DNA of 64,000 nt. Origin: Acidimicrobiia bacterium (lineage in GTDB: Bacteria; Actinomycetota; Acidimicrobiia; Spongiisociales; Spongiisociaceae). Below are positions 33,933-56,883 of this stretch, one piece after another. The stretch lies in assembly GCA_022827785.1 (NCBI GenBank), contig JAJEIM010000031.1, forward strand, positions 32,549 to 96,548, read 5' to 3'. The position numbers were made by a program, and so were the translations under genes. Each line of letters begins with the position of its first letter. Positions within the stretch are counted from its first letter, which is position 1. A model generated the notes under the pieces. That model did no database searches. It was not told where the DNA came from and saw only the letters and a list, made by a program, of their open reading frames with translations.

Positions 33933-34751
33933 GTGGTGAGCGCAGCCTCGCGTGACCCGGCGCTGGTGGACCGCCGCCACCGGTCGCTGGCGCCCGTTCG
34001 CGAATCCGATTTGCCGAGCCGGGTCATGACCATCCCGGGATGCGAGGGCCGGATCGAGGCCCGGACCCTCTCGAAGGACATGTCGGGGCCGGCGACCCGT
34101 CTCGTCATGCTGAGTTCGGGATGGGGGTCGGGCGTGGCGGGGGCGTTCACCGCCGACGTCGAGCTGTTCGTCATACGCGGCGACCTGATGGTGGCGGGAG
34201 AGCGAGTCGGCCAGTACGACTACGCAGCCGTCCGATCGGGCGAGGTGATCCCCGGAATACGGGCACTCTCATCCACGCTGGCGCTCCTGATGACCTCGGC
34301 GCCGGTCCGGTACGACAGCTCCGCGGGCGGGATGCTCGCCAGGGCCCTGATCGGCTCGGCGAGCGGGTCTCCGTGGGTGCCTGTCAGCGAACTGCCGGGC
34401 CGGTTCATCCGCCCCCTCGCGGACGGTCTCCACGGTCAGGTGTGGCTGGCGGGGGGTCGCGGCTGGACCAACGAGGACGGTCCGTGGCATTCCCACCCCG
34501 GCGCGGAGGAGGTCTTCGTGCTCGACGGGGAGTTCACCGTCGCCGAGCGCCTGTCAGACCATGACCCGGATACCCCCGGCGGTGGGGCACGCGATCAGAT
34601 CCACCGATGGGAAGCGGGGACGTACACCTACCGCCTCCCGGGGCAACTCCACGCCGGCCCCGGCTCGAGCTCATCGGAACTGGCCCTCGCCTTCCACCGC
34701 ATGCACGGTCCGCGGGACTGTCTGTGGACGGACGGCATACCGGCCACCTGA
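33933..34751 (+). CDS. Cupin domain-containing protein
   Basis: WHSHPGAEEVFVLDGEF fits the cupin fold with His-rich motifs. Its function is unknown. Confidence 0.45.
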   Translation: MVSAASRDPALVDRRHRSLAPVRESDLPSRVMTIPGCEGRIEARTLSKDMSGPATRLVMLSSGWGSGVAGAFTADVELFVIRGDLMVAGERVGQYDYAAVRSGEVIPGIRALSSTLALLMTSAPVRYDSSAGGMLARALIGSASGSPWVPVSELPGRFIRPLADGLHGQVWLAGGRGWTNEDGPWHSHPGAEEVFVLDGEFTVAERLSDHDPDTPGGGARDQIHRWEAGTYTYRLPGQLHAGPGSSSSELALAFHRMHGPRDCLWTDGIPAT

Positions 34752-39221: not shown

Positions 39222-40320
39222 CCAGGACCAGTGCCCCGTTCACAAGCTGTGGGAAGGGCTGGGCCAGGCCTTCGCGGAGCGGGTTGGGATTGGAGTCGAC
39301 CTCGAGCATGCCGTCACCACCCGCTGCTGCCAGCAGGTGAGCGGAAGCCACGACCCCGATTCCCGCCCCGAGATGGTGGGGGCAGTAGCGGCGGCCGGCT
39401 GCCAGGATCCGCCTGGCGACCGGCAGGCATCCCGAGATGCCGCCCCACTTGGTGACGTCCGGCTGGATCACGGCCAGCGCCCCGGTGGCGATCGCCCTGC
39501 CGAAGGCCGCTTCGCCGTACAGGTTCTCGCCGCCCGCCAGGGGGATGGGAGAGTCGTCGGCCAGGCTCCTCCAGTCGGCGCCGGGCCGGTCGGCGGGGAT
39601 CGGTTCCTCCAGCCAGGCCGGCGCGTAGGGCGCAAGCGAGCGGATCATCGACCTGGCCACGTCGGGGGACCAAGCCTGGTTGGCATCCAAGGCGACGGTG
39701 GTTTCCCGGCCCAACTCGCTCCGCATCCGGTCGAGGTTGGCGAGGTCGCGCCGCTCCCCGAAGCCGACCTTCAGCTTGAAGGCGCGGTGGCCCTCCGCCC
39801 GGGCCGAAGCGGCCTGTCCGGCTGGATCCTCCGGTCCTATCCCGCTGGCGTAGGCCGGCACCCGCCCGCTTCCCGAATCGCCGAGGAGCCGCCAGAGCGG
39901 CAGGCCGGCCCGCCGCGCCACCATGTCCCAGAGTGAGATGTCGATGCCGGCGATGCACTGGGCGAACGGTCCCGGTTCCCCCGCCTGGATGCCGAGCAGT
40001 CTGGAGCTTTCCGTCAGGTGATCGAACACGGCCTCGGGCCCGGACCACTGCCTGCCGACGATGGCCGGTGCCAGCACCCGGGAGATCAGGTCGGCCCGGT
40101 AACCGGCGGCGGGTTCGGGAAAGTTGCACCACACCTCCCCGTATCCCGTGGTTCCGTCGTCGGATCGGGTGGTGACCACCACCGCCGGACGGTCTTCCAT
40201 GGTCCCGAAGGAGGTCCTTACCGGGCGGGCGACGGGGGCGCGGTAGACCTGGACCGCCAGCGACTCGATGGTGAACGGGTCGGTGGCGGGGCCGCCGCAA
40301 GTGGTGTCGATAGCGCTCAT
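39151..40320 (-). CDS. Enolase-superfamily enzyme, mandelate racemase/muconate lactonizing enzyme family
   Basis: KLKVGFGERRDLANLDRMRSELG...VALDANQAW...LEEP...DVTKWGG are the MR/MLE metal-ligand and KxK motifs. It diverges from the sulfatase gene. Confidence 0.75.
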   Translation of the reverse strand: MSAIDTTCGGPATDPFTIESLAVQVYRAPVARPVRTSFGTMEDRPAVVVTTRSDDGTTGYGEVWCNFPEPAAGYRADLISRVLAPAIVGRQWSGPEAVFDHLTESSRLLGIQAGEPGPFAQCIAGIDISLWDMVARRAGLPLWRLLGDSGSGRVPAYASGIGPEDPAGQAASARAEGHRAFKLKVGFGERRDLANLDRMRSELGRETTVALDANQAWSPDVARSMIRSLAPYAPAWLEEPIPADRPGADWRSLADDSPIPLAGGENLYGEAAFGRAIATGALAVIQPDVTKWGGISGCLPVARRILAAGRRYCPHHLGAGIGVVASAHLLAAAGGDGMLEVDSNPNPLREGLAQPFPQLVNGALVLGDAPGLGVAPDGSVSGLRVDGDG

Positions 40321-40365
40321 GGTCGCGAGTATGGTTACCGCCGTCGGCAAAGGCCAGGAAGGTCG

Positions 40366-42615
40366 ATGAGCCCCAGCACTGATCCGGGCGCAGCGCAGGA
40401 CGCTCCGAGCTACCCGGAGCCGGATTTCGAGGGTGTGATCGGGCCCGACTTCCGGGAGTCGGTTCCGTGGTGGCCGGCGATGGCGAACGATGCCCGCGGC
40501 AAGCCGGACGTCGTGCTGGTGGTGCTGGACGATGTCGGCTTCGCCGGTCTCGGGTGCTACGGGGCCGAGGTGGATACGCCCGTTATGGATGCGCTGGCGG
40601 AGCGGGGGCTGCGTTTCAACGACTTCAACGTCACCCCGCTGTGCTCACCGACCCGCGCCTGCGTGCTCACCGGGCGCAACCATCACAGCGTAGGGATGGC
40701 CTACCTGTCGAATGTCGACTCGGGGTTCCCCGGACACCGCGGCCGGGTGACGAAGTCGGCCGGCAACCTGGGAGAGGTGCTGGCGGGTGCCGGCTATGCA
40801 ACGATGGCGATCGGCAAGTGGCATCTGGCGCCCCTCGAGGAGACCACTGCCGCCGGTCCCTACGACGAGTGGCCGCTGGGACGCGGGTTCGGTCGCTACT
40901 ACGGCTTCCTCGACGCCCTCACCGATCATTTCTACCCTGACGTGGTGGAGGACAACCACCGGGTGGATCCGCCGGGCAGTCCCGAGGACGGCTACCACCT
41001 GACCGAGGACCTGATCGACCACGCCATCTCCTACGTGAGCGACCAGGTCTCGGTCAAGCCCGAGCAGCCCTTCTTCCTCTACGCGGCCTTCGGCACGGCT
41101 CACTGTCCCCACCAGGCCCCCCAGGAGTATCTGGACAAGTACCGCGGGCGTTACGACGAGGGTTGGGACGTGGTTCGCGAGCGCCGCTTCGCCCGCCAGA
41201 AGGAGATGGGGATCGTTCCCGAGGATGCGGTTCTGGCGCCGCTCAACCCGGGCGTGGAGGCTTGGGCCGACCTCACCCCTAACCAGCAGAAGCTCTTCGC
41301 CCGTTTCCAGGAGGCATACGCAGCCATGCTGGACCATACGGACGCCCAGTTGGGTCGGCTGGTGGACTTCCTGGAGTCGATCGGGCGGCTCGACAACACG
41401 GTCTTCGTGGTCCTTTCCGACAACGGGGCCAGCCAGGAGGGAGGGCCGGACGGCGGGGCCGACATCGTGACCTACGAGGAGGACCGCTTCTGCACCGTGG
41501 ACTTCAACATGGAGCGGTTCGACACCATCGGCGGCCCGCACTCCCAGACCAACATCCCGTGGGGATGGGCGCAGGCCGCCAACACCCCCCTGCGCTGGTA
41601 CAAGCAGAACACCTACGCGGGCGGGGTGCGGACCCCGATGATCGTCTCCTGGCCGGAAGGCCTGGCGGACACCGGCGGCGTGAGAACGCGGTTCGTCCAC
41701 GCCATCGACATCGCCCCCACCATCCTGGATCTCGTGGATGTGGCGCCCAAGTCCTCGTACGGCGGTGTGGACCAGATGCCCTACCACGGTGCCAGCATCC
41801 GCGATGTGCTGGACGACCCCGGCGCTCCCGCCCCTCGCGACCGGCAGTACTTCGAGATGATCGGCCACCGGGCCATGTGGCAGGACGGCTGGAAGGCCCT
41901 CACCCGGCACCGGCGGAACGAACCCTTCGAGGACGATCCTTGGGAGCTGTACCACATCGACTCCGATTTCTCCGAATGCAAAGATGTGGCCGCCGAACAC
42001 CCCGACAAGCTGGCCGATCTGGTTGGGCGGTGGTCGGAGGAGGCCTCCCGGTACTCGGTGTTCCCGCTCGACGACCGCTACCTGGCGGTGAGGGCTTCCA
42101 CTTTCCAGACTCCCGGTACGCCGAGGGCGAGGGACACGTTCTCATACCTCGGCGGTTCGAGCCGGGTGCCGGGCGCCGCCACCCCGCTGGTGTTCAACCG
42201 GGACTTCAGGATCACGGCCCGGATCGCCCCACTGGGCGCGGCTGACGAGGGGGTGCTGGTGGCAGTGGGCGATGTGAGCGGAGGCTACGTCCTGTACCTG
42301 GCCGGCGGGCACCTCGTGTTCGAGTACTGCTACCTCGGTGAACGCCAGACGCTTGCCTCGTCCGATCCGGTGATCCCAGGGGCGACCGAACTGTCGTTCC
42401 GGTTCGCGAGGACCGGGGACTACCGGGGCATCGGCCGGCTGGAAGCCGACGGCCGGACTCTCGGCGAGATGGAGATGGCCTCCATGGCCCGGGGCATGAT
42501 CTCCTGGGGGTCTCTCAGCGTCGGCGCCGACACGCTGTCCCCGGTGAGCAGTTCTTACGAGGGCGAGTTCCCCTACACAGGAAGCCTGGAGAGAGTCGAC
42601 TTCGACCTCGGCTGA
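40366..42615 (+). CDS. Arylsulfatase (formylglycine-dependent sulfatase family)
   Basis: VVLVVLDDVGFAGLGCYG...TPLCSPTRACVLTGR carries the C-x-P-x-R motif. The ATG at 40366 has a ggaagg Shine-Dalgarno; the track ORF's longer N-terminus overlaps the divergent gene. Confidence 0.8.
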   Translation: MSPSTDPGAAQDAPSYPEPDFEGVIGPDFRESVPWWPAMANDARGKPDVVLVVLDDVGFAGLGCYGAEVDTPVMDALAERGLRFNDFNVTPLCSPTRACVLTGRNHHSVGMAYLSNVDSGFPGHRGRVTKSAGNLGEVLAGAGYATMAIGKWHLAPLEETTAAGPYDEWPLGRGFGRYYGFLDALTDHFYPDVVEDNHRVDPPGSPEDGYHLTEDLIDHAISYVSDQVSVKPEQPFFLYAAFGTAHCPHQAPQEYLDKYRGRYDEGWDVVRERRFARQKEMGIVPEDAVLAPLNPGVEAWADLTPNQQKLFARFQEAYAAMLDHTDAQLGRLVDFLESIGRLDNTVFVVLSDNGASQEGGPDGGADIVTYEEDRFCTVDFNMERFDTIGGPHSQTNIPWGWAQAANTPLRWYKQNTYAGGVRTPMIVSWPEGLADTGGVRTRFVHAIDIAPTILDLVDVAPKSSYGGVDQMPYHGASIRDVLDDPGAPAPRDRQYFEMIGHRAMWQDGWKALTRHRRNEPFEDDPWELYHIDSDFSECKDVAAEHPDKLADLVGRWSEEASRYSVFPLDDRYLAVRASTFQTPGTPRARDTFSYLGGSSRVPGAATPLVFNRDFRITARIAPLGAADEGVLVAVGDVSGGYVLYLAGGHLVFEYCYLGERQTLASSDPVIPGATELSFRFARTGDYRGIGRLEADGRTLGEMEMASMARGMISWGSLSVGADTLSPVSSSYEGEFPYTGSLERVDFDLG

Positions 42616-42694: not shown

Positions 42695-46241
<3,547 letters not shown>

Positions 46242-49207: not shown

Positions 49208-50217
49208 GTATCCGCACCCGGCGCTTCCTCAACGACCCCAGCCGTGCGGTGGCGGAGATGCTGGAAGGGTATGTCGCGGCCCATGCCGGCATCATCTCGC
49301 TGAGGGACGGCATGGTGGTCCGCACCGCTCCCAAGGCCGAGGGCAAGGTGGGCCTGGTGATCGGCAATGGCTCCGGCCATGAGCCGGCCATGATCGGCTG
49401 GGTGGGGGTGGGTCTGTTCGACGTCAACGTTGCGGGTCCGATCTTCTCATCGCCCGGACCCGCGGCGATCCTCCGCGGCATCGAGGCGGCAGACCGGGGC
49501 GGTGGGGTCCTCCTGCTGGTCTCCAGCCATGCCGGAGACATCATGAACGCCGAGTTGGCCATTGACGAGGCGGAGGACGGAGGCATCGAGGATGTCGAGA
49601 TGGTGGTCCTGTACGACGATGTAGCCTCGGCGCCCAAGGACCGGATCACCGAGCGCAGGGGCGGGGCCGGGCTCTTCTTCGTCTGGAAGATGGTGGGAGC
49701 GGCGGCCGACCGCGGCGACTCTCTGGAGACGTGCGCCGCGGTCGCCCGCAAGGTCCGGGATCGCACCCGCTCGCTGTCGGCGGCGACCGGCACGGTGGCC
49801 CACCCGGTGAGCGGGCAGCCCCTCGGGGACCCCGAGGACACCACCCTGTCGGTGGGTATGGGAGTCCATGGCGAGCCGGGCCACCGTCTCGGCGAGGATG
49901 TTCGGGCGGACGAGATCGCGAGCCTGATGATCGACCGGCTGGCGGACGATGCCGACCTGCCGTCCGGCGCGCAGGTGGGGCTGCTCCTCAACAACGCCGG
50001 CTCTCTCACCCTGATGGAGCTATCGGTCCTGTACCGGGGGGCTCGCGCCGCCCTGGAGCGAAAAGGCCTCGAAGTGGTCCGTTCCTGGATGGGTCCCTAT
50101 GCCACCACCCTCGACATGGCGGGATTCTCTTTCGCCATCTGCCACATGGACGGCGAACTGATCGAGCTCTACGACCGGCCCGCCAGGGGAGCGGGCTTCA
50201 CGATGGCCGGCCGGTAG
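49204..50217 (+). CDS. dhaK: Dihydroxyacetone (or related ketose) kinase subunit DhaK
   Basis: LVIGNGSGHEP...HAGDIMNAELA; ATGA overlap with the upstream gene. Confidence 0.85.
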   Translation: MSIRTRRFLNDPSRAVAEMLEGYVAAHAGIISLRDGMVVRTAPKAEGKVGLVIGNGSGHEPAMIGWVGVGLFDVNVAGPIFSSPGPAAILRGIEAADRGGGVLLLVSSHAGDIMNAELAIDEAEDGGIEDVEMVVLYDDVASAPKDRITERRGGAGLFFVWKMVGAAADRGDSLETCAAVARKVRDRTRSLSAATGTVAHPVSGQPLGDPEDTTLSVGMGVHGEPGHRLGEDVRADEIASLMIDRLADDADLPSGAQVGLLLNNAGSLTLMELSVLYRGARAALERKGLEVVRSWMGPYATTLDMAGFSFAICHMDGELIELYDRPARGAGFTMAGR

Positions 50218-50222
50218 CGGCG

Positions 50223-50864
50223 ATGATCGACCGGGACCTGGCGGTCCGGCTGGTGGTTGCGGCCAGCCGGAGGGTGGACGACCACCGGGAGGAGTTGTCC
50301 CGGCTCGACTCGGTGGCCGGTGACGGTGACCACGGGGTCAACATGGCGGCCGCCCTGGCGGAAGCGGCCCGCCGCGCCGGGGAAGACGACCACGGTAGTG
50401 CTGCCGAGGTGATGCGAGCTACCGGATCCGCCTTTCACGAGACCGTGGGCGGTGCCGCCGGCGCGCTGTTCGGCGCCTTCTTCGGAGCCCTCGCGGGTGG
50501 CCTATCCCGGTCATCGGCGCCCGACGAGAGTGGGCTCGTAGCCGGGATGGAGAAGGGTCTGGCCCGGGTGGCGCGGATCGGCAAGGCCGGACCGGGAGAC
50601 AAGACGATGATCGATGCCCTGGCCCCCGCCGTGAGCGAGGCCAGGGAGGCGATGGAGGGGGATGGCGACCTGGCGTCCGTATTGGCCGCGGCGGCCCGAG
50701 CCGCGCGAGAAGGCGCCCGGGCGACCGCGGGCATGCGGCCCTCTGCGGGGCGGGCCCGGTTCGCCCCCGATCACAGCATGGGGACCGAGGATCCCGGCGC
50801 CAATACGGTTGCCCTGATCCTCGAGTCCTGGGACGAACAGTTGAGCAGCGAGGTGACGGCATGA
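50223..50864 (+). CDS. dhaL: Dihydroxyacetone kinase subunit DhaL
   Basis: DSVAGDGDHGVNM is the DhaL ADP-binding motif. Confidence 0.85.
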   Translation: MIDRDLAVRLVVAASRRVDDHREELSRLDSVAGDGDHGVNMAAALAEAARRAGEDDHGSAAEVMRATGSAFHETVGGAAGALFGAFFGALAGGLSRSSAPDESGLVAGMEKGLARVARIGKAGPGDKTMIDALAPAVSEAREAMEGDGDLASVLAAAARAAREGARATAGMRPSAGRARFAPDHSMGTEDPGANTVALILESWDEQLSSEVTA

Positions 50865-52300
50865 GTGGCCAGCGACTCCGGGTCGGATACGTGGGGGTGG
50901 CGTTCGAGAGTTACTACGCCGACGAGCACGACCAGTACCGGCGGGCCACCACCGGCCTCCGCCGCCTCGCCGACGAACTGGACTTCGACCTGGTGGCCAT
51001 CGACCACGGGATCGGTGATCTGGAGGCCGCACGCGAGGCAGCCGGCCACCTGTCGTCCCAGCAACTCGACTTCCTGGTCCTCCAGGCCGCGGCCTGCGCG
51101 TCGGGCGAGTTGCTCGAACCGCTGGCGGCGGTTGCTCCCCGGCTCGGCCTCTGGGCCACTCCCGAGCCGGTCCTGGAGGGATCGATCCAGCTCCACTCCC
51201 TGGTCTCGACCAACCACTTCGCCTCGATAATCCGCCGCTACCTGCGAGATCGGGGGACACCCTACAAGTGGTTCCTCGGCCACATCGACGAGCCGGACAC
51301 GGAACGGCGCTTCCGCGTCACCTTCCGCGCCCTGAAGGGGATCAAGGCGATGGCCTCGGCGCGGATCGGCTGGATAGGCGGCATCTCTCCCGGTTTCTAC
51401 AACATGCTGTTCGACGAGGAGAGCCTGGAAAGCCGGTTCGGAACCACGGTCGGCACGCACACCATCGAAGACGTAGTCCAATCGGCTCGGGCCGTCGAGA
51501 CCGGCCCGGCCGCATCCGTGGTGCGGAAGGCCACCGACCTGGCCACCGAGGTGACCGCTCCCTCACTCGGCATGGACCGCAATGCCCGCCTCTACCTGGC
51601 CCTCCGCCGGATCATCGAGACGGAGGGGTACGACGCCCTGGCAGTCCAGTGCTGGCCCAGCTTCCAGGAGGACTTCGACATGGCCCCGTGCATGGCCTAC
51701 AGCCTGCTGGGCTCGGAGGACGGTGTGGCGGTGTCCTGCGAGGGGGACGTGCCCGGGGCGGTGACGATGCTCCTGATGAACTCGATGTCGCCCCATCATG
51801 GTTCCGCCACTCTGCTGGACCTGACCACCCTCGACCTGGAAACCGACGCCGCCCTGCTCTGGCATTGTGGGGTCACGCCCCGCCATTTCGGCGCAGGCAA
51901 CGGGATCCGCTGGGTGGATCATGTGACGCTGGGACGCAAGTCGGACATCCGCTACGGCGTGTCGGGCGACCTGTTGTTCGCTCCCCAGCAGACGACCATC
52001 TCCTATGCGGGGGACGATTTCCGCGAGCTGTTCATCGCCACGGCCGAGGTGGTGGACACGGGCAAGGCCGGGTTCGACGGCACCCGCGGCTGGTTCACCC
52101 GGTTCCGGCTCAACGGGGAGCCGATCGAGTTGATGGACCTGGTCAACACCGTGATGGTCCAGGGCCGCGAGCACCACTACGCGGTGGCGCAGGGAGACCT
52201 GTCCTCGGAGCTGGCGGAAGTGGCCGCCTGGCTCGGGATGCGCACCACTAGGCCCATCCCGATGCGGGACTACCTACAGATCGATGACCTGAGCGGATGA
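50861..52300 (+). CDS. L-fucose/L-arabinose isomerase family protein
   Basis: A ~480 aa protein with RVGYVGVAFESYYAD...IGWIGGISPGFYNM...GSATLLDL...WHCG, resembling the FucI/AraA C-terminal domain family. ATGA overlap with dhaL. Confidence 0.6.
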   Translation: MSGQRLRVGYVGVAFESYYADEHDQYRRATTGLRRLADELDFDLVAIDHGIGDLEAAREAAGHLSSQQLDFLVLQAAACASGELLEPLAAVAPRLGLWATPEPVLEGSIQLHSLVSTNHFASIIRRYLRDRGTPYKWFLGHIDEPDTERRFRVTFRALKGIKAMASARIGWIGGISPGFYNMLFDEESLESRFGTTVGTHTIEDVVQSARAVETGPAASVVRKATDLATEVTAPSLGMDRNARLYLALRRIIETEGYDALAVQCWPSFQEDFDMAPCMAYSLLGSEDGVAVSCEGDVPGAVTMLLMNSMSPHHGSATLLDLTTLDLETDAALLWHCGVTPRHFGAGNGIRWVDHVTLGRKSDIRYGVSGDLLFAPQQTTISYAGDDFRELFIATAEVVDTGKAGFDGTRGWFTRFRLNGEPIELMDLVNTVMVQGREHHYAVAQGDLSSELAEVAAWLGMRTTRPIPMRDYLQIDDLSG

Positions 52301-53214
52301 CGGGACTCCCCGAAGGCCGGTCGGAGGTGGGCTCGCGTCGTCTCGGGCGGGTCGCAACGACGACCGGTCTCTTCACGGTCCTGGCGATCGACCATGTGGG
52401 CTCATTCGCCCAGACCGTGAGCCCGGCCCGCCCGGAGAACATGACGGCCGACGACATCAACGCGGCCAAGCAACCGATCATCGAGGCGCTCGGGCCGATA
52501 AGCCGGGCCGTCCTGATCGACCCCGGCTATCTCGTGGCCACGGGGTCCGCGGTTGGTGGCCGCCCGGAGGGTCTGGGCCTGATCCTCGGTATCGAGGACG
52601 GGGACTACGCTGACGTTCGAACCTCCCCTCGCCTCCTTCCCGGCTGGAACGTGGAGCGGGCGGCCGAGATGGGAGCGGACGCCGTCAAGATCTCCGTCTA
52701 CTACGACCCGGACGGGGATATGTCAGCGGCGGAACGGTTCGTGACGGCTGTGGTGAGGCAGTGCCGGGAGGTCGGGTTGCCGCTCTTCTGCGAGCCTCTG
52801 GCGCTCTACGAGGATCCCGCTGACAGGAAGCGCGCCGTGATGGAAGGAGTTAGACGGCTCGGCCCGCTGGGGGCGGAAGTGCTGAAGCTGCAGTTTCCCG
52901 TCATGCCGGAGGCCGGCCGGCACGCTCCCGAGGAATGGGCCGAAGCATGCGCCGAGGTCGACCGCTCGAGTCCGGTTCCCTGGGTCATCCTGTCCGAGGG
53001 CAGTGACTTCGGGCTCTTCCGTGACCAGGTGCGGGTGGCCTGCGCGGCGGGGGCGTCGGGGTTTCTCGGAGGCCGGGCCATCTGGCGCGAGCTTGCCACG
53101 GGCCGACGCGACGCGCACCATGCCGCCCAGCGGATGACCGAGCTGCGTGCCGTCGCCGAGGCTGAAGGGACGCCCTGGTCGACCTCGATGGCGCGGCGCA
53201 ACACGATCCGATAG
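52297..53214 (+). CDS. Class I aldolase family protein (tagatose/fructose-bisphosphate aldolase LacD-like)
   Basis: FTVLAIDHVGSF...AVKISVYYDPDGD...LKLQFPV resembles the LacD/DeoC-type TIM-barrel aldolase pattern. ATGA overlap with the upstream gene. Confidence 0.5.
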   Translation: MTGLPEGRSEVGSRRLGRVATTTGLFTVLAIDHVGSFAQTVSPARPENMTADDINAAKQPIIEALGPISRAVLIDPGYLVATGSAVGGRPEGLGLILGIEDGDYADVRTSPRLLPGWNVERAAEMGADAVKISVYYDPDGDMSAAERFVTAVVRQCREVGLPLFCEPLALYEDPADRKRAVMEGVRRLGPLGAEVLKLQFPVMPEAGRHAPEEWAEACAEVDRSSPVPWVILSEGSDFGLFRDQVRVACAAGASGFLGGRAIWRELATGRRDAHHAAQRMTELRAVAEAEGTPWSTSMARRNTIR

Positions 53215-54889: not shown

Positions 54890-56077
54890 TTGGTCCCATG
54901 CCCGCCGATCATTGGGGCCGATCAGAACTATCATGTGGCGGGTCCCGACCGGAGGGCACTCTTGACAGTATCCGAGCGTTCAGCGGCCGCCCGGTGGCGC
55001 CGCGTCGCATGGGCGGGGTTGGTCACCGTCGCTCTGCTGGCGGCGGGGACCGTTCCGGGATCGGCCACCACCGGCGCGGACGGAGGGTTCTCCGACGTGG
55101 GCGAGGGCGGCACGCATACGCCCGCCATCGAGGCCCTCTCAGCCATGGGTGTGTTCTCGGGCACCGGATGTGGGGACGGCCTCTTCTGTCCCCGCGACCC
55201 GGTGGAGCGGTCGGTGATGGCCGTCTGGCTGATCCGGGTGCTCGGCCGTGAGGTCGACGCCACCGGAACATCCCGGTTCGCCGACGTCGACGCCGACCTG
55301 TGGTGGTCACCCTACGCGGAGGAACTCGCCGACCGGGAGATCACTACGGGATGCGGTACCGAACCACTCCGCTACTGCCCGGAAAAGACCGTCAACCGGG
55401 GGCAGATGGCCACCTTCCTGGTCCGCGCCTTCGATCTCGAACCCGCCGCCGCGGCCGGGTTCATCGATGTTGCCGAGGGCGGAACGCACAGCGCCAGCAT
55501 CGACGCCCTGTACGCGGCCGGCATCACCACCGGATGCGGTACCGATCCGCTCCGCTACTGCCCGCTCAAGGCCGTGAACCGGGGCCAGATGGCCACCTTC
55601 CTGCACCGGGCATTACACATGCAGGCAGAGGAGACCGGGTCCGCGCCTGTCGAGATAAGCGACGACGTCCCGGATGCCGACCTGACCGACGTGGCCACCG
55701 GCGACACCGTGAACCTCCGGTCGGTCTTCACCGGCGACAAGGCGGTCATGTTCTGGTTCTGGGCCGAGTGGTGACCGACTTGCCAGGGGCATGCCCCCGA
55801 GGTCGAGCAGTTTGCTCGAAAAAACGCCGGAAAGGTCACAGTCGTCGGCATCAACCCGCGAACATGGAACAATCTGACCGATGCCAGGAGCTTTGTGAGC
55901 AGGTACGGGTTAACTTTCACCAACCTCTGGGACAGCTCCGATACCGTGCGTAGGCACTATGGCAGCCCCTATACGTCTAGGGCGCTGCTGGTCGACAAGC
56001 AGGGCAACCGGGTGGAGCAGGCTCCGAGCCTCTTCTCCGCCGCCAGGTTCCAGGGGCTGGTCGACAACCTCGACTAG
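54890..56077 (+). CDS. Candidate selenoprotein: a cell-envelope protein with three SLH-like repeats fused to a TlpA/ResA-like thioredoxin-fold domain. An in-frame TGA (55772-55774) sits at the first Cys of the CxxC motif. The alternative reading is a pseudogene truncated at 55774
   Basis: The track ORF 54890..55774 ends ...KAVMFWFWAEW-TGA. The same frame continues without interruption as PTCQGHAPEVEQFARKNAGKVTVVGIN...YGLTFTNLWD...ALLVDKQGNRV... to a TAG at 56075-77; the track ORF 55895..56077 is in the same frame. Together this forms a textbook TlpA fold (FWAxW-C/U-xx-C) with TGA at the nucleophilic Cys position. Three upstream repeats read F[SAI]DV...TGCG...[LR][FY]CP...V.R..MA..L.R. Confidence 0.5.
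55777..55804 (+). promoter_or_regulatory. Candidate bacterial SECIS-like hairpin immediately 3' of the in-frame UGA
   Basis: GACUUGCCAGGGG-CAUG-CCCCCGAGGUC forms a 4 bp GC apical stem (GGGG/CCCC) with a 4-nt loop containing G, plus a lower stem GACUU/GAGGUC. The apical loop lies about 16 nt downstream of the UGA. Confidence 0.35.
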
Positions 56078-56121
56078 GCGGCCCGGCCCCGCTGGCCCGA
56101 CTCCATCATCCCGGGCCGCTG

Positions 56122-56883
56122 CTACTTGGGTCCCATCCTGATCCCGCCGTCCATGCGGATGGTCTCGCCGTTCATGTACTCGTGGGTGACCAGCAGCATC
56201 ACCAGCTCCGCATACTCGTCGGGACGGCCGAGACGCTTCGGGTGAAGAACCTGGCGGCCCAGCGACTCCTTGGCTGGCTCGGGCAGACCGGCCAGCAGCG
56301 GAGTGTCGATGATCCCCGGGGCGATGGTGCTGACCCGGATCCCCAGGACGGAAAGATCCCGGGCGATAGGCAGGGTCATCCCGACGATCCCGCCCTTGGA
56401 GGCCGAGTAGGCGGCCTGGCCGATCTGGCCGTCGTAGGCGGCCACCGAGGCAGTATTGATGATGGCGCCCCGGTCGTTGTTCGCATCGGGCTCGTTCCCC
56501 ATCATCGCGGAGGCGGCGACCCGGATCGTGTTGAACGTCCCCACCAGGTTGATGTCGATCACCTTGCGGAACAGGGCGAGGGAGTGGGGGGTTCCGTCCC
56601 GGGCGAGAGTGCGGCAGGGCGGCCCGATCCCGGCGCAGTTGACGACCACCCGTATCTCGCCCAGCCGGGCGGCCGCATCGACTCCGGCCACCACGTCATC
56701 CTCGCTGGTGACGTCACAATGGGCGAAGATGCCGCCCAGTTCGCCGGCGACCTCTCCGCCGAGGGTGTCATTGACGTCGAGAATCGCCACTCTCATGCCT
56801 TTAGCGGCCAGCGCCCGGGCGGCGGCCGCCCCAAGACCCGACGCGCCTCCGGTCACGACCGCCACAGCTCCGTTGAGGTCCAT
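56122..56883 (-). CDS. SDR family 3-hydroxyacyl-CoA dehydrogenase type-2-like oxidoreductase
   Basis: VAVVTGGASGLGAA, NCAG, and YSASKGG (YxxxK), in an HSD17B10/FadB2x-like pattern. Confidence 0.75.
   Translation of the reverse strand: MDLNGAVAVVTGGASGLGAAAARALAAKGMRVAILDVNDTLGGEVAGELGGIFAHCDVTSEDDVVAGVDAAARLGEIRVVVNCAGIGPPCRTLARDGTPHSLALFRKVIDINLVGTFNTIRVAASAMMGNEPDANNDRGAIINTASVAAYDGQIGQAAYSASKGGIVGMTLPIARDLSVLGIRVSTIAPGIIDTPLLAGLPEPAKESLGRQVLHPKRLGRPDEYAELVMLLVTHEYMNGETIRMDGGIRMGPK

What the first reader, a model, noticed from the sequence alone, without database searches (positions are those of the whole stretch)
55775..55810. Hairpin directly downstream of the in-frame UGA with bSECIS-like geometry
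The sequence GACUUGCCAGGGGCAUGCCCCCGAGGUC can fold as a lower stem (GACUU/GAGGUC, with one bulge) plus an apical 4-bp GGGG/CCCC stem capped by a CAUG loop. The G-containing apical loop lies about 16 nt after the UGA. That falls within the spacing range described for bacterial SelB-binding elements. The hairpin lies inside the coding continuation of the thioredoxin domain. It is therefore not a terminator for an ORF ending at the TGA.
Basis: seen in the sequence. Interest (0 to 1): 0.6.

Follow-up and report, generated by a model that had tools for sequence, protein, structure and literature searches.

The report
Two-hairpin selenocysteine signal after UGA
The flagged hairpin is real and belongs to the RNA signal that makes the ribosome read an in-frame UGA as selenocysteine in a cell-surface thiol-disulfide oxidoreductase, but the hairpin that best fits the known factor-binding site is the invariant one just downstream of it.

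Summary
The TGA at 55772-55774 replaces the first Cys of the CxxC motif in an SLH + TlpA/ResA-like redoxin gene. All 111 related gene copies examined carry TGA at that codon and keep the reading frame, so this is very likely a genuine selenoprotein. Two hairpins follow the UGA.

In this window it is weak: it is no better than shuffles or synonymous recodings, its register slips, its CAUG loop has no leading G, and it lies 15 nt from the UGA. Across 91 distinct homologous elements, however, a hairpin at this site is always more stable than recoded controls. It shows compensatory changes and is lost in the four Cys-form relatives checked.

HP2 (55803-55819, UCGAGC-A-GUU-U-GCUCGA) is nucleotide-invariant in 90 of 91 elements, with rare codons fixed. 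It meets every criterion of the published bacterial SECIS consensus, and its apex resembles that of E. coli fdhF.

Best reading: a two-part bSECIS in which HP2 binds SelB and HP1 is a structural spacer at the mRNA entrance. This is a new member of a known kind. SelB binding and the Sec machinery were not testable.

The parts
54890..56077 (+). Selenoprotein gene: N-terminal signal-like segment, SLH repeats and a C-terminal TlpA/ResA-like redoxin domain with a U-P-T-C active site. The start codon is uncertain (54890 is the first possible TTG). The stop is TAG at 56075-56077.
   Evidence: Translation reads through a single TGA. Pfam Redoxin 2e-14, AhpC-TSA 4.5e-14 and SLH 5.8e-9. The best NCBIfam match is ResA, below its cut-off. 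GC3 is coding-like on both sides of the TGA. Public gene calls are cut at the TGA (P0003 ends ...FWFWAEW).
55772..55774 (+). In-frame UGA, inferred selenocysteine codon (first position of the UxxC motif).
   Evidence: TGA at the homologous codon in all 31 copies from the genome-contig scan (29) and from contigs fetched for P0009/P0011 (2) and all 82 copies from metagenomes. It aligns with Cys in P0018, P0021, P0023, P0028, P0033 and others. TGA is otherwise the commonest stop codon in the window, at 19 of 32 ORFs.
55781..55783 (+). TGC, the resolving Cys of the UxxC motif; invariant.
   Evidence: T10 and G11 are invariant in alignment A3. C is invariant in protein alignment A2.
55784..55799 (+). 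With flanking pairs it spans about 55782-55803. Inferred role: structural spacer or roadblock hairpin of the bSECIS.
   Evidence: Folds. Family-wide stability exceeds the synonymous null: mean -11.4 against -6.2 kcal/mol, 91 of 91 below their null mean, median p 0.04. Compensatory pairs occur within registers 40, 41 and 44. It is lost in four Cys forms. In this window it is weakened by CGG->CAG.
55803..55819 (+). HP2: UCGAGC(A)-GUU-(U)GCUCGA, a 6-7 bp stem with loop GUU at 55810-55812. Inferred SelB-binding apical hairpin of the bSECIS.
   Evidence: P >= 0.97 in the ensemble. 0 of 1000 synonymous recodings fold as well. The core GAGC[AG]GTT[CT]GCTC sits at +34 in 90 of 91 distinct elements. 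Codons are fixed at GTC 100%, GAG 100%, CAG 100%, GCT 99% (background 8%) and CGA 67% (background 11%). It passes every bSECIS criterion here and in 79 of 91 elements. It is the only exact copy in the window.

Best explanation
The 45 nt after the in-frame UGA (about 55782-55819) form a two-hairpin bacterial SECIS. It recodes UGA 55772 as selenocysteine in an SLH-anchored TlpA/ResA-like thiol-disulfide oxidoreductase.

HP2 (55803-55819) is a 6-7 bp stem with a loop of the form N1-G-U-U-N2, invariant in sequence. It is the element recognised by the C-terminal winged-helix domains of SelB.

It starts 8-10 nt after the UGA, so it sits at the mRNA entrance when UGA is in the A site. By folding, it takes up about 19 nt and brings HP2 within reach of ribosome-bound SelB. 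It may also slow the ribosome and so help Sec insertion compete with RF2.

Shown:
- The UGA is conserved, and it aligns with Cys in homologs.
- Both hairpins are under selection at the nucleotide level.
- Both hairpins are linked to the Sec forms.
- HP2 fits the published consensus.

Inferred:
- SelB binds HP2.
- HP1 acts as a spacer.
- The Sec machinery is present in this genome.
For: Genuine Sec codon:
- TGA in 111 of 111 copies, with conserved downstream protein.
- Cys at that column in Cys-form homologs.
- TGA is otherwise the main stop codon in the window.
- Sec machinery is reported in another order of the same class, Acidimicrobiia (bioRxiv 10.64898/2026.04.03.716425).

HP2:
- It is the only helix kept by RNAalifold.
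- It is invariant in 90 of 91 elements.
- Rare codons GCT and CGA are fixed, and the unpaired loop base G39 is always G at a synonymous site.
- Synonymous null p <= 0.003 in most loci, and 0 of 1000 in the window.
- It meets the loop, stem, G[G|U], spacing (34-35 nt) and energy criteria of the consensus quoted in PMC13188914.
- Its apex GCA-GUU-UGC resembles fdhF GCA-GGUC-UGC.
- The encoded motif E[QR]FAR is present in all Sec forms. Among the Cys-form sequences inspected (8 from the exhaustive search, plus P0081 and P0087) it is kept only in the closely related pair P0018/P0081 and varies in the rest.
- It has decayed at synonymous sites in Cys form L104.

HP1:
- Always more stable than its recodings.
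- Compensatory changes such as CG/UA at 15-29, GC/UA at 17-27 and CG/GC/AU at 17-24.
- Cys forms give -2.4 to -5.6 kcal/mol against a Sec median of -11.6 (Mann-Whitney p = 4e-4).
- HP1 loops differ between paralogs of one genome (CACG against GAG in L012), while HP2 is the same in both.
- Two Sec paralogs (L004:1866, L006:663) have almost no HP1 but keep HP2.
Against: - No SelB, SelA, SelD or tRNA-Sec gene was seen in the window or in any fetched locus. Their presence in these genomes could not be checked.
- No non-homologous selenoprotein gene from these genomes was available, so HP2's identity across genes could reflect shared ancestry plus a protein constraint rather than SelB specificity.
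- The conserved G of HP2 is 36-37 nt from the UGA, at the far end of the 16-37 nt range. The usual distance is about 20 nt (PMC4605307), which is where HP1's loop and the invariant G22 lie.
- In the largest subfamily HP1 itself has an A-GGC-U loop at 16-17 nt and fits the consensus.
- HP2 has no bulged U like E. coli U17.
- All p-values ignore phylogenetic non-independence.
- The Cys-form control rests on four sequences that represent two lineages.
Confidence: 0.6

Rival explanations
1. The reader's hairpin (HP1) is itself the SelB-binding bSECIS hairpin, placed as in E. coli. HP2 is an accessory helix that stacks on it, stabilises it or blocks mispairing.
For: - HP1's loop lies at +18..+23, matching the usual 'conserved G about 20 nt after UGA' (PMC4605307). 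G22 is invariant.
- The E. coli minihelix spans +15..+31 (PMC8659212; fold).
- In the WAPH-U-PxC subfamily HP1 is a perfect 7-8 bp stem with an A-GGC-U loop at 16-17 nt spacing, and it fits the consensus.
- HP1 is selected and is lost in Cys forms.
Against: - The HP1 loop sequence and register vary widely (GGC, AAGCC, CGAAGC, GAG, CAYG and others). They differ between paralogs served by one SelB.
- Only 19 of 91 elements pass all consensus criteria, and the window's copy fails two.
- G22 and C23 are fixed by the Ala codon, which Cys forms also conserve. The free loop positions 21 and 24 vary.
- Two Sec paralogs lack HP1.
- This reading does not explain why an unpaired loop base of HP2 (G39) is fixed at a synonymous site.
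Confidence: 0.25
2. HP1 is an incidental by-product of translating C-R/Q-G-H-A-P-E with G+C-rich codons. Only HP2, or nothing, is functional.
For: - In the window and its closest orthologs, HP1 is no more stable than 6-52% of synonymous recodings. It is within the range of dinucleotide shuffles.
- RNAalifold drops it.
- The null mean is already -6 to -8 kcal/mol.
Against: - All 91 elements lie on the stable side of their null, 56% at p < 0.05.
- Stems of quite different sequence occur, with compensatory changes.
- Rare codons GCT and CCA are used to complete 8-bp stems in L020-type genes, p <= 0.001.
- Cys forms encoding a similar peptide (C-K-G-E-A-P, C-R-T-D-A-P) do not form it.
Confidence: 0.1
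3. The TGA is a true stop, a pseudogene lesion or a sequencing error, or UGA is reassigned genome-wide. On this reading the hairpins have nothing to do with selenocysteine.
For: Public gene callers end the ORF at the TGA. No Sec machinery was seen in the 64 kb window.
Against: - The same TGA occurs in 111 independent copies from many assemblies, with conserved downstream protein and coding-type GC3.
- The position is the catalytic Cys of CxxC.
- No terminator is present.
- TGA ends 19 of 32 confident ORFs in the window, so it has not been reassigned.
Confidence: 0.03

Closest known systems
Bacterial SECIS consensus (bSECISearch model of Zhang and Gladyshev, as summarised in PMC13188914, Fig. 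2 legend)
   Same: A stem-loop inside the coding region just after a Sec-UGA. HP2 has a 3-5 nt loop, a 6-7 bp stem, the loop pattern N1-G-U-N-N2 with N1-N2 able to pair, 34-35 nt spacing and MFE of -9.2 kcal/mol.
   Different: The consensus describes one stem-loop core. Here a second, separately selected hairpin fills the space between the UGA and the consensus-fitting hairpin. The spacing lies at the upper edge of the allowed range.
E. coli fdhF SECIS (fetched as L103)
   Same: It directly follows a UGA-C. Its apex GCA-GGUC-UGC resembles HP2's GCA-GUU-UGC (G-C, C-G and A-U closing pairs, and a G-U in the loop). HP1 occupies the same distance window as the fdhF minihelix at +15..+31.
   Different: fdhF is a single bulged hairpin whose SelB loop lies at +22..+25 and which has an essential bulged U. 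Here the E. coli-like loop lies at +38..+42, neither hairpin has a bulged U, and the hairpin at the E. coli position has a non-conserved loop.
TlpA-like / thiol-disulfide isomerase-like UxxC selenoproteins (cd02966) listed among predicted prokaryotic selenoproteins (PMC13188914)
   Same: A thioredoxin-fold Redoxin/AhpC-TSA domain with Sec at the first position of the CxxC motif.
   Different: It could not be checked whether the listed family is this same E[QR]FAR clade. The window's protein is fused to N-terminal SLH repeats. Related genomes carry tandem arrays of two or three Sec paralogs.
Downstream recoding stimulators (frameshift or read-through hairpins and pseudoknots 6-9 nt past the recoded codon); a resemblance recalled from general knowledge, not tested here
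   Same: HP1 begins 8-10 nt after the UGA, the spacing at which a structure meets the mRNA entrance while the recoded codon is in the A site.
   Different: Those elements act without a dedicated elongation factor. No pausing was measured here.

Membership tests
Bacterial SECIS (bSECIS consensus model) | Lies immediately downstream of an in-frame UGA that aligns with Cys in homologs, inside a continuing ORF | tested here: met
   TGA in 111 of 111 copies. Cys at that column in P0018, P0021, P0023 and others.
Bacterial SECIS (bSECIS consensus model) | Apical loop of 3-9 nt on an upper stem of 4-16 bp | tested here: met
   HP1 in the window has a 4-bp stem and a 4-5 nt loop. HP2 has a 6-7 bp stem and a 3-5 nt loop.
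   The window loop is CAUG or CAUGC. Family-wide, 58 of 91 have a G there and only 20 of 91 have G[G|U].
Bacterial SECIS (bSECIS consensus model) | At least one G in the first two loop positions (typically N1-G-[G|U]-N-N2): tested on HP2 | tested here: met
   A-GUU-U in the window. 91 of 91 have R-G-U-U-Y.
Bacterial SECIS (bSECIS consensus model) | 16-37 nt between the UGA and the apical loop | tested here: met
   HP2: 34-35 nt in 91 of 91. HP1 in the window: 15 nt, just outside the range; 38 of 91 HP1 copies fall within it.
Bacterial SECIS (bSECIS consensus model) | MFE <= -7.5 kcal/mol | tested here: met
   HP2 alone is -9.2. The HP1 region is -9.6 (core -6.4). Both together are -17.6.
Bacterial SECIS (bSECIS consensus model) | Binds SelB and directs Sec insertion | not testable with these tools
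   Needs binding assays or reporter assays.
Bacterial SECIS (bSECIS consensus model) | The genome encodes selA, selB, selC (tRNA-Sec) and selD | not tested
   None found in the 64 kb window or in the fetched loci. Another order of Acidimicrobiia is reported to have the machinery.
E. coli-type SECIS (fdhF/fdnG) | 17-nt minihelix 11 nt after the UGA, with a bulged U17 and G23-U24 in the loop | tested here: not met
   HP1 is at the right distance but has no bulged U and no G-U loop. HP2 has the G-U loop but lies 17 nt further on and has no bulge.
Rfam SECIS families | Match to a curated covariance model | tested here: not met
   No hit at gathering score over the window, and none at E <= 10 in 55740-55860. 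Bacterial SECIS elements are poorly represented in Rfam.
Intrinsic terminator | G+C-rich hairpin followed by a U-run at the end of a gene | tested here: not met
   No terminator-like site in 55500-56300 on either strand. The ORF continues in frame.
TlpA/ResA-like thiol-disulfide oxidoreductase selenoprotein (UxxC) | Redoxin/AhpC-TSA thioredoxin fold with the W-C/U-x-x-C active site | tested here: met
   Pfam Redoxin 54 bits (cut-off 26.6) and AhpC-TSA 53 bits. The NCBIfam ResA hit is below its equivalog cut-off.

The most novel reading that the evidence does not exclude
This family uses a distinct two-part class of bacterial SECIS. A covarying 'spacer' hairpin parks at the mRNA entrance, and next to it lies an invariant 17-nt hairpin that carries the SelB recognition loop about 36 nt from the UGA. 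The RNA requirement is strict enough to have frozen a five-residue protein motif (E-Q/R-F-A-R) in every Sec-containing member across diverse lineages.
Probability: 0.35. Interest if true: 0.6.

Novelty: new member of a known kind. Interest (0 to 1): 0.42.

Why it matters
This corrects a mis-annotation. Public gene calls split the protein at the UGA into a 'hypothetical' SLH fragment and small orphan ORFs. It adds a cell-surface, SLH-anchored TlpA-like selenoprotein to sponge-associated Acidimicrobiia, often present as tandem Sec paralogs.

For SECIS biology it offers a large natural data set. There are more than 100 copies and at least 380 relatives in metagenomes. In them one hairpin is frozen in sequence and the neighbouring hairpin covaries freely.

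This makes two questions directly testable:
- Which part does SelB read?
- How can a SECIS loop 35 nt from the UGA still reach the ribosome-bound factor?

It is also a clean example of an RNA signal dictating a protein motif.

Tried and rejected
- Rfam at gathering threshold (whole window) and at E <= 10 (local region) found no SECIS family.
- ARAGORN on the window and 58 loci found no tRNA-Sec.
- Pfam/NCBIfam annotation of 20 window ORFs found no sel genes. They encode RNase J, FtsK, ArgJ, KatG, a sulfatase, peptidases, an SDR, RNase H and a glutamine amidotransferase.
- Two scans of all held sequence (385 kb) looked for other in-frame TGA genes, with or without consensus-type hairpins. Only this family turned up, so SECIS elements could not be compared across unrelated genes.
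- A single alignment-wide structure for HP1 fails because subfamilies use different registers. RNAalifold drops HP1, and register 40 shows no excess covariation over the whole alignment.
This comes from fixed Pro/Thr/Val/Glu codon letters. Its free site follows background usage and it competes with HP2, so it was rejected as a selected helix.
- The terminator and promoter readings were rejected.
- Literature searches for selenoproteins in sponge Acidimicrobiia or Spongiisociaceae found nothing.
- P0012, the top hit of the exhaustive search, is a 1938-aa repeat protein that matches only through a low-complexity 'APEVDQ' repeat. It is irrelevant.
Full report
**What is at the site**

Coordinates below count U of the UGA as +1 (window 55772).

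- The ORF 54890-55774 (+) ends at TGA 55772-55774, but the same frame stays open to a TAG at 56075-56077.
- Read through, the product has SLH repeats and a C-terminal Redoxin/AhpC-TSA (TlpA/ResA-like) domain.
- The TGA falls exactly at the first Cys of the W-C-x-x-C active site, giving W-U-P-T-C.
- GC3 is coding-like on both sides of the TGA, and no other TGA in the window has this property.
- TGA is the commonest ordinary stop codon in the window, at 19 of 32 confident ORFs. A genome-wide reassignment is therefore excluded.

- GGGG (+15..+18) pairs with CCCC (+23..+26) around a CAUG loop. In a 41-nt fold the lower stem CGACUU/GAGGUCG also forms, at -14.8 kcal/mol.
- Taken alone this is unremarkable.
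  - z = -1.4, with 20 of 200 dinucleotide shuffles folding as well.
  - z = -0.8 on 59 nt.
  - 8-11% of synonymous recodings of the same peptide, drawn from the window's own codon usage, fold as well.
- The G and C runs slip.
- The published consensus is quoted in PMC13188914. It requires:
  - a loop of 3-9 nt;
  - a stem of at least 4 bp;
  - a G in the first two loop positions, mostly N1-G-[G|U]-N-N2;
  - 16-37 nt of spacing;
  - MFE <= -7.5 kcal/mol.
- Against this consensus the window hairpin fails on the loop G (CAUG) and narrowly on spacing (15 nt).
- The lower stem uses U32-G34. In longer folds these bases belong to a second hairpin with probability >= 0.97.

- At +32..+48 (55803-55819) lies UCGAGC-A-GUU-U-GCUCGA, with 6-7 bp and -9.2 kcal/mol.
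- None of 1000 synonymous recodings folds as well.
- It passes every consensus criterion, with loop A-GUU-U and 34-35 nt spacing.
- I fetched E. coli fdhF to compare. Its SECIS apex is GCA-GGUC-UGC at +19..+28, while the window's HP2 apex is GCA-GUU-UGC at +36..+44.

**Relatives**

- One scan of species-representative genomes gave 19 loci, all from Acidimicrobiia MAGs including sponge-associated Spongiisociaceae.
- Every locus that covers the site has TGA there. tblastn then showed one or two additional tandem paralogs in many loci, again all with TGA.
- Small 96-aa proteins from the first protein search turned out to be post-UGA fragments of more distant Sec forms.
- A metagenome scan with a profile found at least 380 relatives. 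The 80 loci kept hold 82 copies, all with TGA.
- The total is 111 copies and 91 distinct 60-nt elements, which align without gaps.

**HP2 across the family**

- The core GAGC[AG]GTT[CT]GCTC sits at +34 in 90 of 91 elements. The exception has GCC in place of GCT.
- At synonymous sites the contrast with background usage in the same genes is stark:

| Codon after UGA | Codon fixed | Observed | Background |
|---|---|---|---|
| 10 | GTC | 100% | 43% |
| 11 | GAG | 100% | 74% |
| 12 | CAG | 100% | 85% |
| 14 | GCT | 99% | 8% |
| 15 | CGA | 67% | 11% |

- The unpaired loop base G39 is the third position of Gln or Arg codons, and it never varies. This points to sequence-specific recognition rather than structure alone.
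- A38/U42 and G38/C42 occur but G38/U42 never does. TTT is enriched about threefold when position 38 is A.
- These counts are not corrected for shared ancestry.

**HP1 across the family**

- No single register fits all sequences, and RNAalifold keeps only HP2.
- Folded one by one, however, every one of the 91 elements is more stable than the mean of its own synonymous recodings. The means are -11.4 against -6.2 kcal/mol, with median p 0.04 and 56% at p < 0.05.
- Stems differ completely in sequence. Examples are CGCCGGGA/UCCCGGCG, CGCCUGGA/UCCAGGCG, CGUCAGGA/UCCUGACG, GUCGGGC/GCCCGAC, GCCGGGCC/GGCCCGGC and UCGGCG/CGCCGA.
- Within each register class there are compensatory pairs:
  - 15-29: CG 19, UA 7.
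  - 17-27: GC 18, UA 8, AU 1.
  - 12-29: CG 12, UA 10.
  - 17-24: CG 19, GC 10, AU 2.
- Registers 41 and 44 exceed all 500 column shuffles for covariation. Register 40 does not.
- The window's copy is among the weakest because CGG has become CAG (an A14.C27 mismatch).
- HP1's loop is not conserved (GGC, AAGCC, CGAAGC, GAG, CAYG and others). It differs between paralogs in the same genome, and only 19 of 91 copies pass all consensus criteria.
- Two Sec paralogs (L004:1866 and L006:663) have almost no HP1 yet keep HP2.

- An exhaustive phmmer search with the post-UGA peptide found Cys-form homologs.
- At the position of E[QR]FAR they read EELAR, AKFAE, EQLSQ, EAFSE, QRFAQ, KRVAT and EAFSK. Only P0018 keeps EQFAR.
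- All 111 Sec forms have E[QR]FAR, so the protein motif travels with the UGA.
- DNA was obtained for four Cys forms:

| Cys form | HP1-region MFE (kcal/mol) | HP2 state |
|---|---|---|
| L104 | -2.4 | Decayed at synonymous and neighbouring sites (GTC->CTG, GCT->GCC) |
| L105 | -3.9 | Intact |
| L106:2202 | -2.6 | Replaced by other sequence |
| L107 | -5.6 | Replaced by other sequence |

- For comparison, the Sec forms range from -17.8 to -5.0 with a median of -11.6 (Mann-Whitney p = 4e-4).
- Contig L106 carries a Sec paralog (HP1 -12.6, HP2 -13.6) directly upstream of a Cys paralog that lacks HP1.
- The four Cys forms represent only two lineages, so this is supportive rather than conclusive.

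**Mechanism**

The evidence supports a two-part bSECIS.

- I assign SelB recognition to HP2 for four reasons.
  - Its loop is fixed even at synonymous, unpaired positions.
  - It is the element shared by all paralogs that one SelB must serve.
  - It fits the consensus.
  - It resembles the fdhF apex.
- HP1 starts 8-10 nt after the UGA. This is where mRNA leaves the ribosome's entry channel when the UGA is in the A site (general knowledge of ribosome footprints, not tested here).
- In the largest subfamily HP1's closing pair C13-G31 abuts HP2's U32 with no linker, so the two helices could stack.
- Folding of HP1 removes about 19 nt from the path. This could put HP2's loop at a through-space distance similar to that modelled for ordinary SECIS elements: about 57 A, or about 13 nt, with a flexible WHD2-3 hinge (PMC4605307).
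- HP1 may also pause the ribosome.
- These mechanistic steps are inference.

**The main rival**

- The main rival is that HP1 is the SelB site.
- It has the canonical distance, an invariant G22 lies in or next to its loop, and in many relatives it has a textbook A-GGC-U loop.
- I give this reading about 0.25.

**What could not be done**

- No sel genes or tRNA-Sec lie in the window or the fetched loci, and the genome collection could not be scanned again.
- No unrelated selenoprotein gene from these organisms was in the 385 kb held. The test that would separate the two readings could therefore not be run.
- Rfam has no matching model.

**Comparison with what is known, and verdict**

- UxxC TlpA-like (cd02966) selenoproteins are already listed among predicted prokaryotic selenoproteins, and bSECIS elements are a known kind.
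- This is therefore a new member of a known kind, not annotated in public records.
- The tandem arrangement of a covarying proximal hairpin and a frozen distal hairpin was not found described in the papers read (single stem-loop core in PMC13188914). It is the part that might prove to be a distinct variant.

Noticed in passing
L004:1866, L006:663 and 1808, L009:1962, L010:1959, L011:1910, L012:1358, L013:1909, L014:1914; L039 and L042 (1609 and 2223): Related genomes carry two or three tandem paralogs of the redoxin gene. Every one has its own in-frame TGA and HP2. The window has a single copy.
   Followed up: partly
window 55769-55771 and the homologous codon in 91 elements: The codon just before the UGA is His in 54 of 91 elements. 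It uses CAT 56% of the time against 15% background, so U is enriched at -1. The base after the UGA is C in at least 70 of 91 (UGA-C). This may be a context effect on Sec insertion against termination.
   Followed up: no
window 55790-55792 equivalent (+19..+21) in alignment A3: When codon 6 after the UGA is Glu, it uses GAA 63% of the time against 26% background. This puts an A rather than a G at loop position +21 of HP1. Unexplained.
   Followed up: no
L105:3001-3825 (P0081) and L104:261-1061 (P0018): Two 78%-identical Cys-form genes still encode EQFAR. One keeps a perfect HP2 next to a TGC codon, and the other has lost it through GTC->CTG and GCT->GCC. This looks like a recent Sec-to-Cys conversion with the SECIS decaying.
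   Followed up: partly
P0003, P0001, P0090-P0124: Public gene calls split these selenoproteins at the UGA. The results are SLH-only 'hypothetical' or 'S-layer homology domain-containing' proteins ending ...FWFWAEW, plus orphan 78-96 aa ORFs.
   Followed up: partly
L049:1900, L061:1927, L080:958: In the WAPH-U-PxC subfamily the redoxin gene is followed at once by a membrane protein beginning ...PLALAFGAGLLAA. It was judged CcdA/DsbD-like by eye only, with no family search run. If so, this would be the usual partner arrangement for ResA/TlpA-type reductases.
   Followed up: no
window 34749-34751: The TGA ending ORF 33933-34751 is followed by 43 more in-frame codons with coding-like GC3. There is no CxxC-type context and no consensus hairpin, so this is probably an ordinary stop with an adjacent or overlapping gene.
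   Followed up: no
window 40018-42615, 43926-46241, 42695-44026, 49731-53214: The surrounding genes encode a sulfatase, a catalase-peroxidase-type peroxidase, a Rieske ring-hydroxylating oxygenase, and a sugar cluster matching DhaL, sulfoquinovose isomerase and tagatose-bisphosphate aldolase (the isomerase and aldolase hits are below curated cut-offs). None is related to selenium metabolism.
   Followed up: partly
P0012: A 1938-aa protein topped the exhaustive search with 19 matched stretches. It is a tandem 'PSVGTVTIAGQAPEVDQA' repeat protein that matches only the APEVEQ segment, so the hit is spurious.
   Followed up: yes
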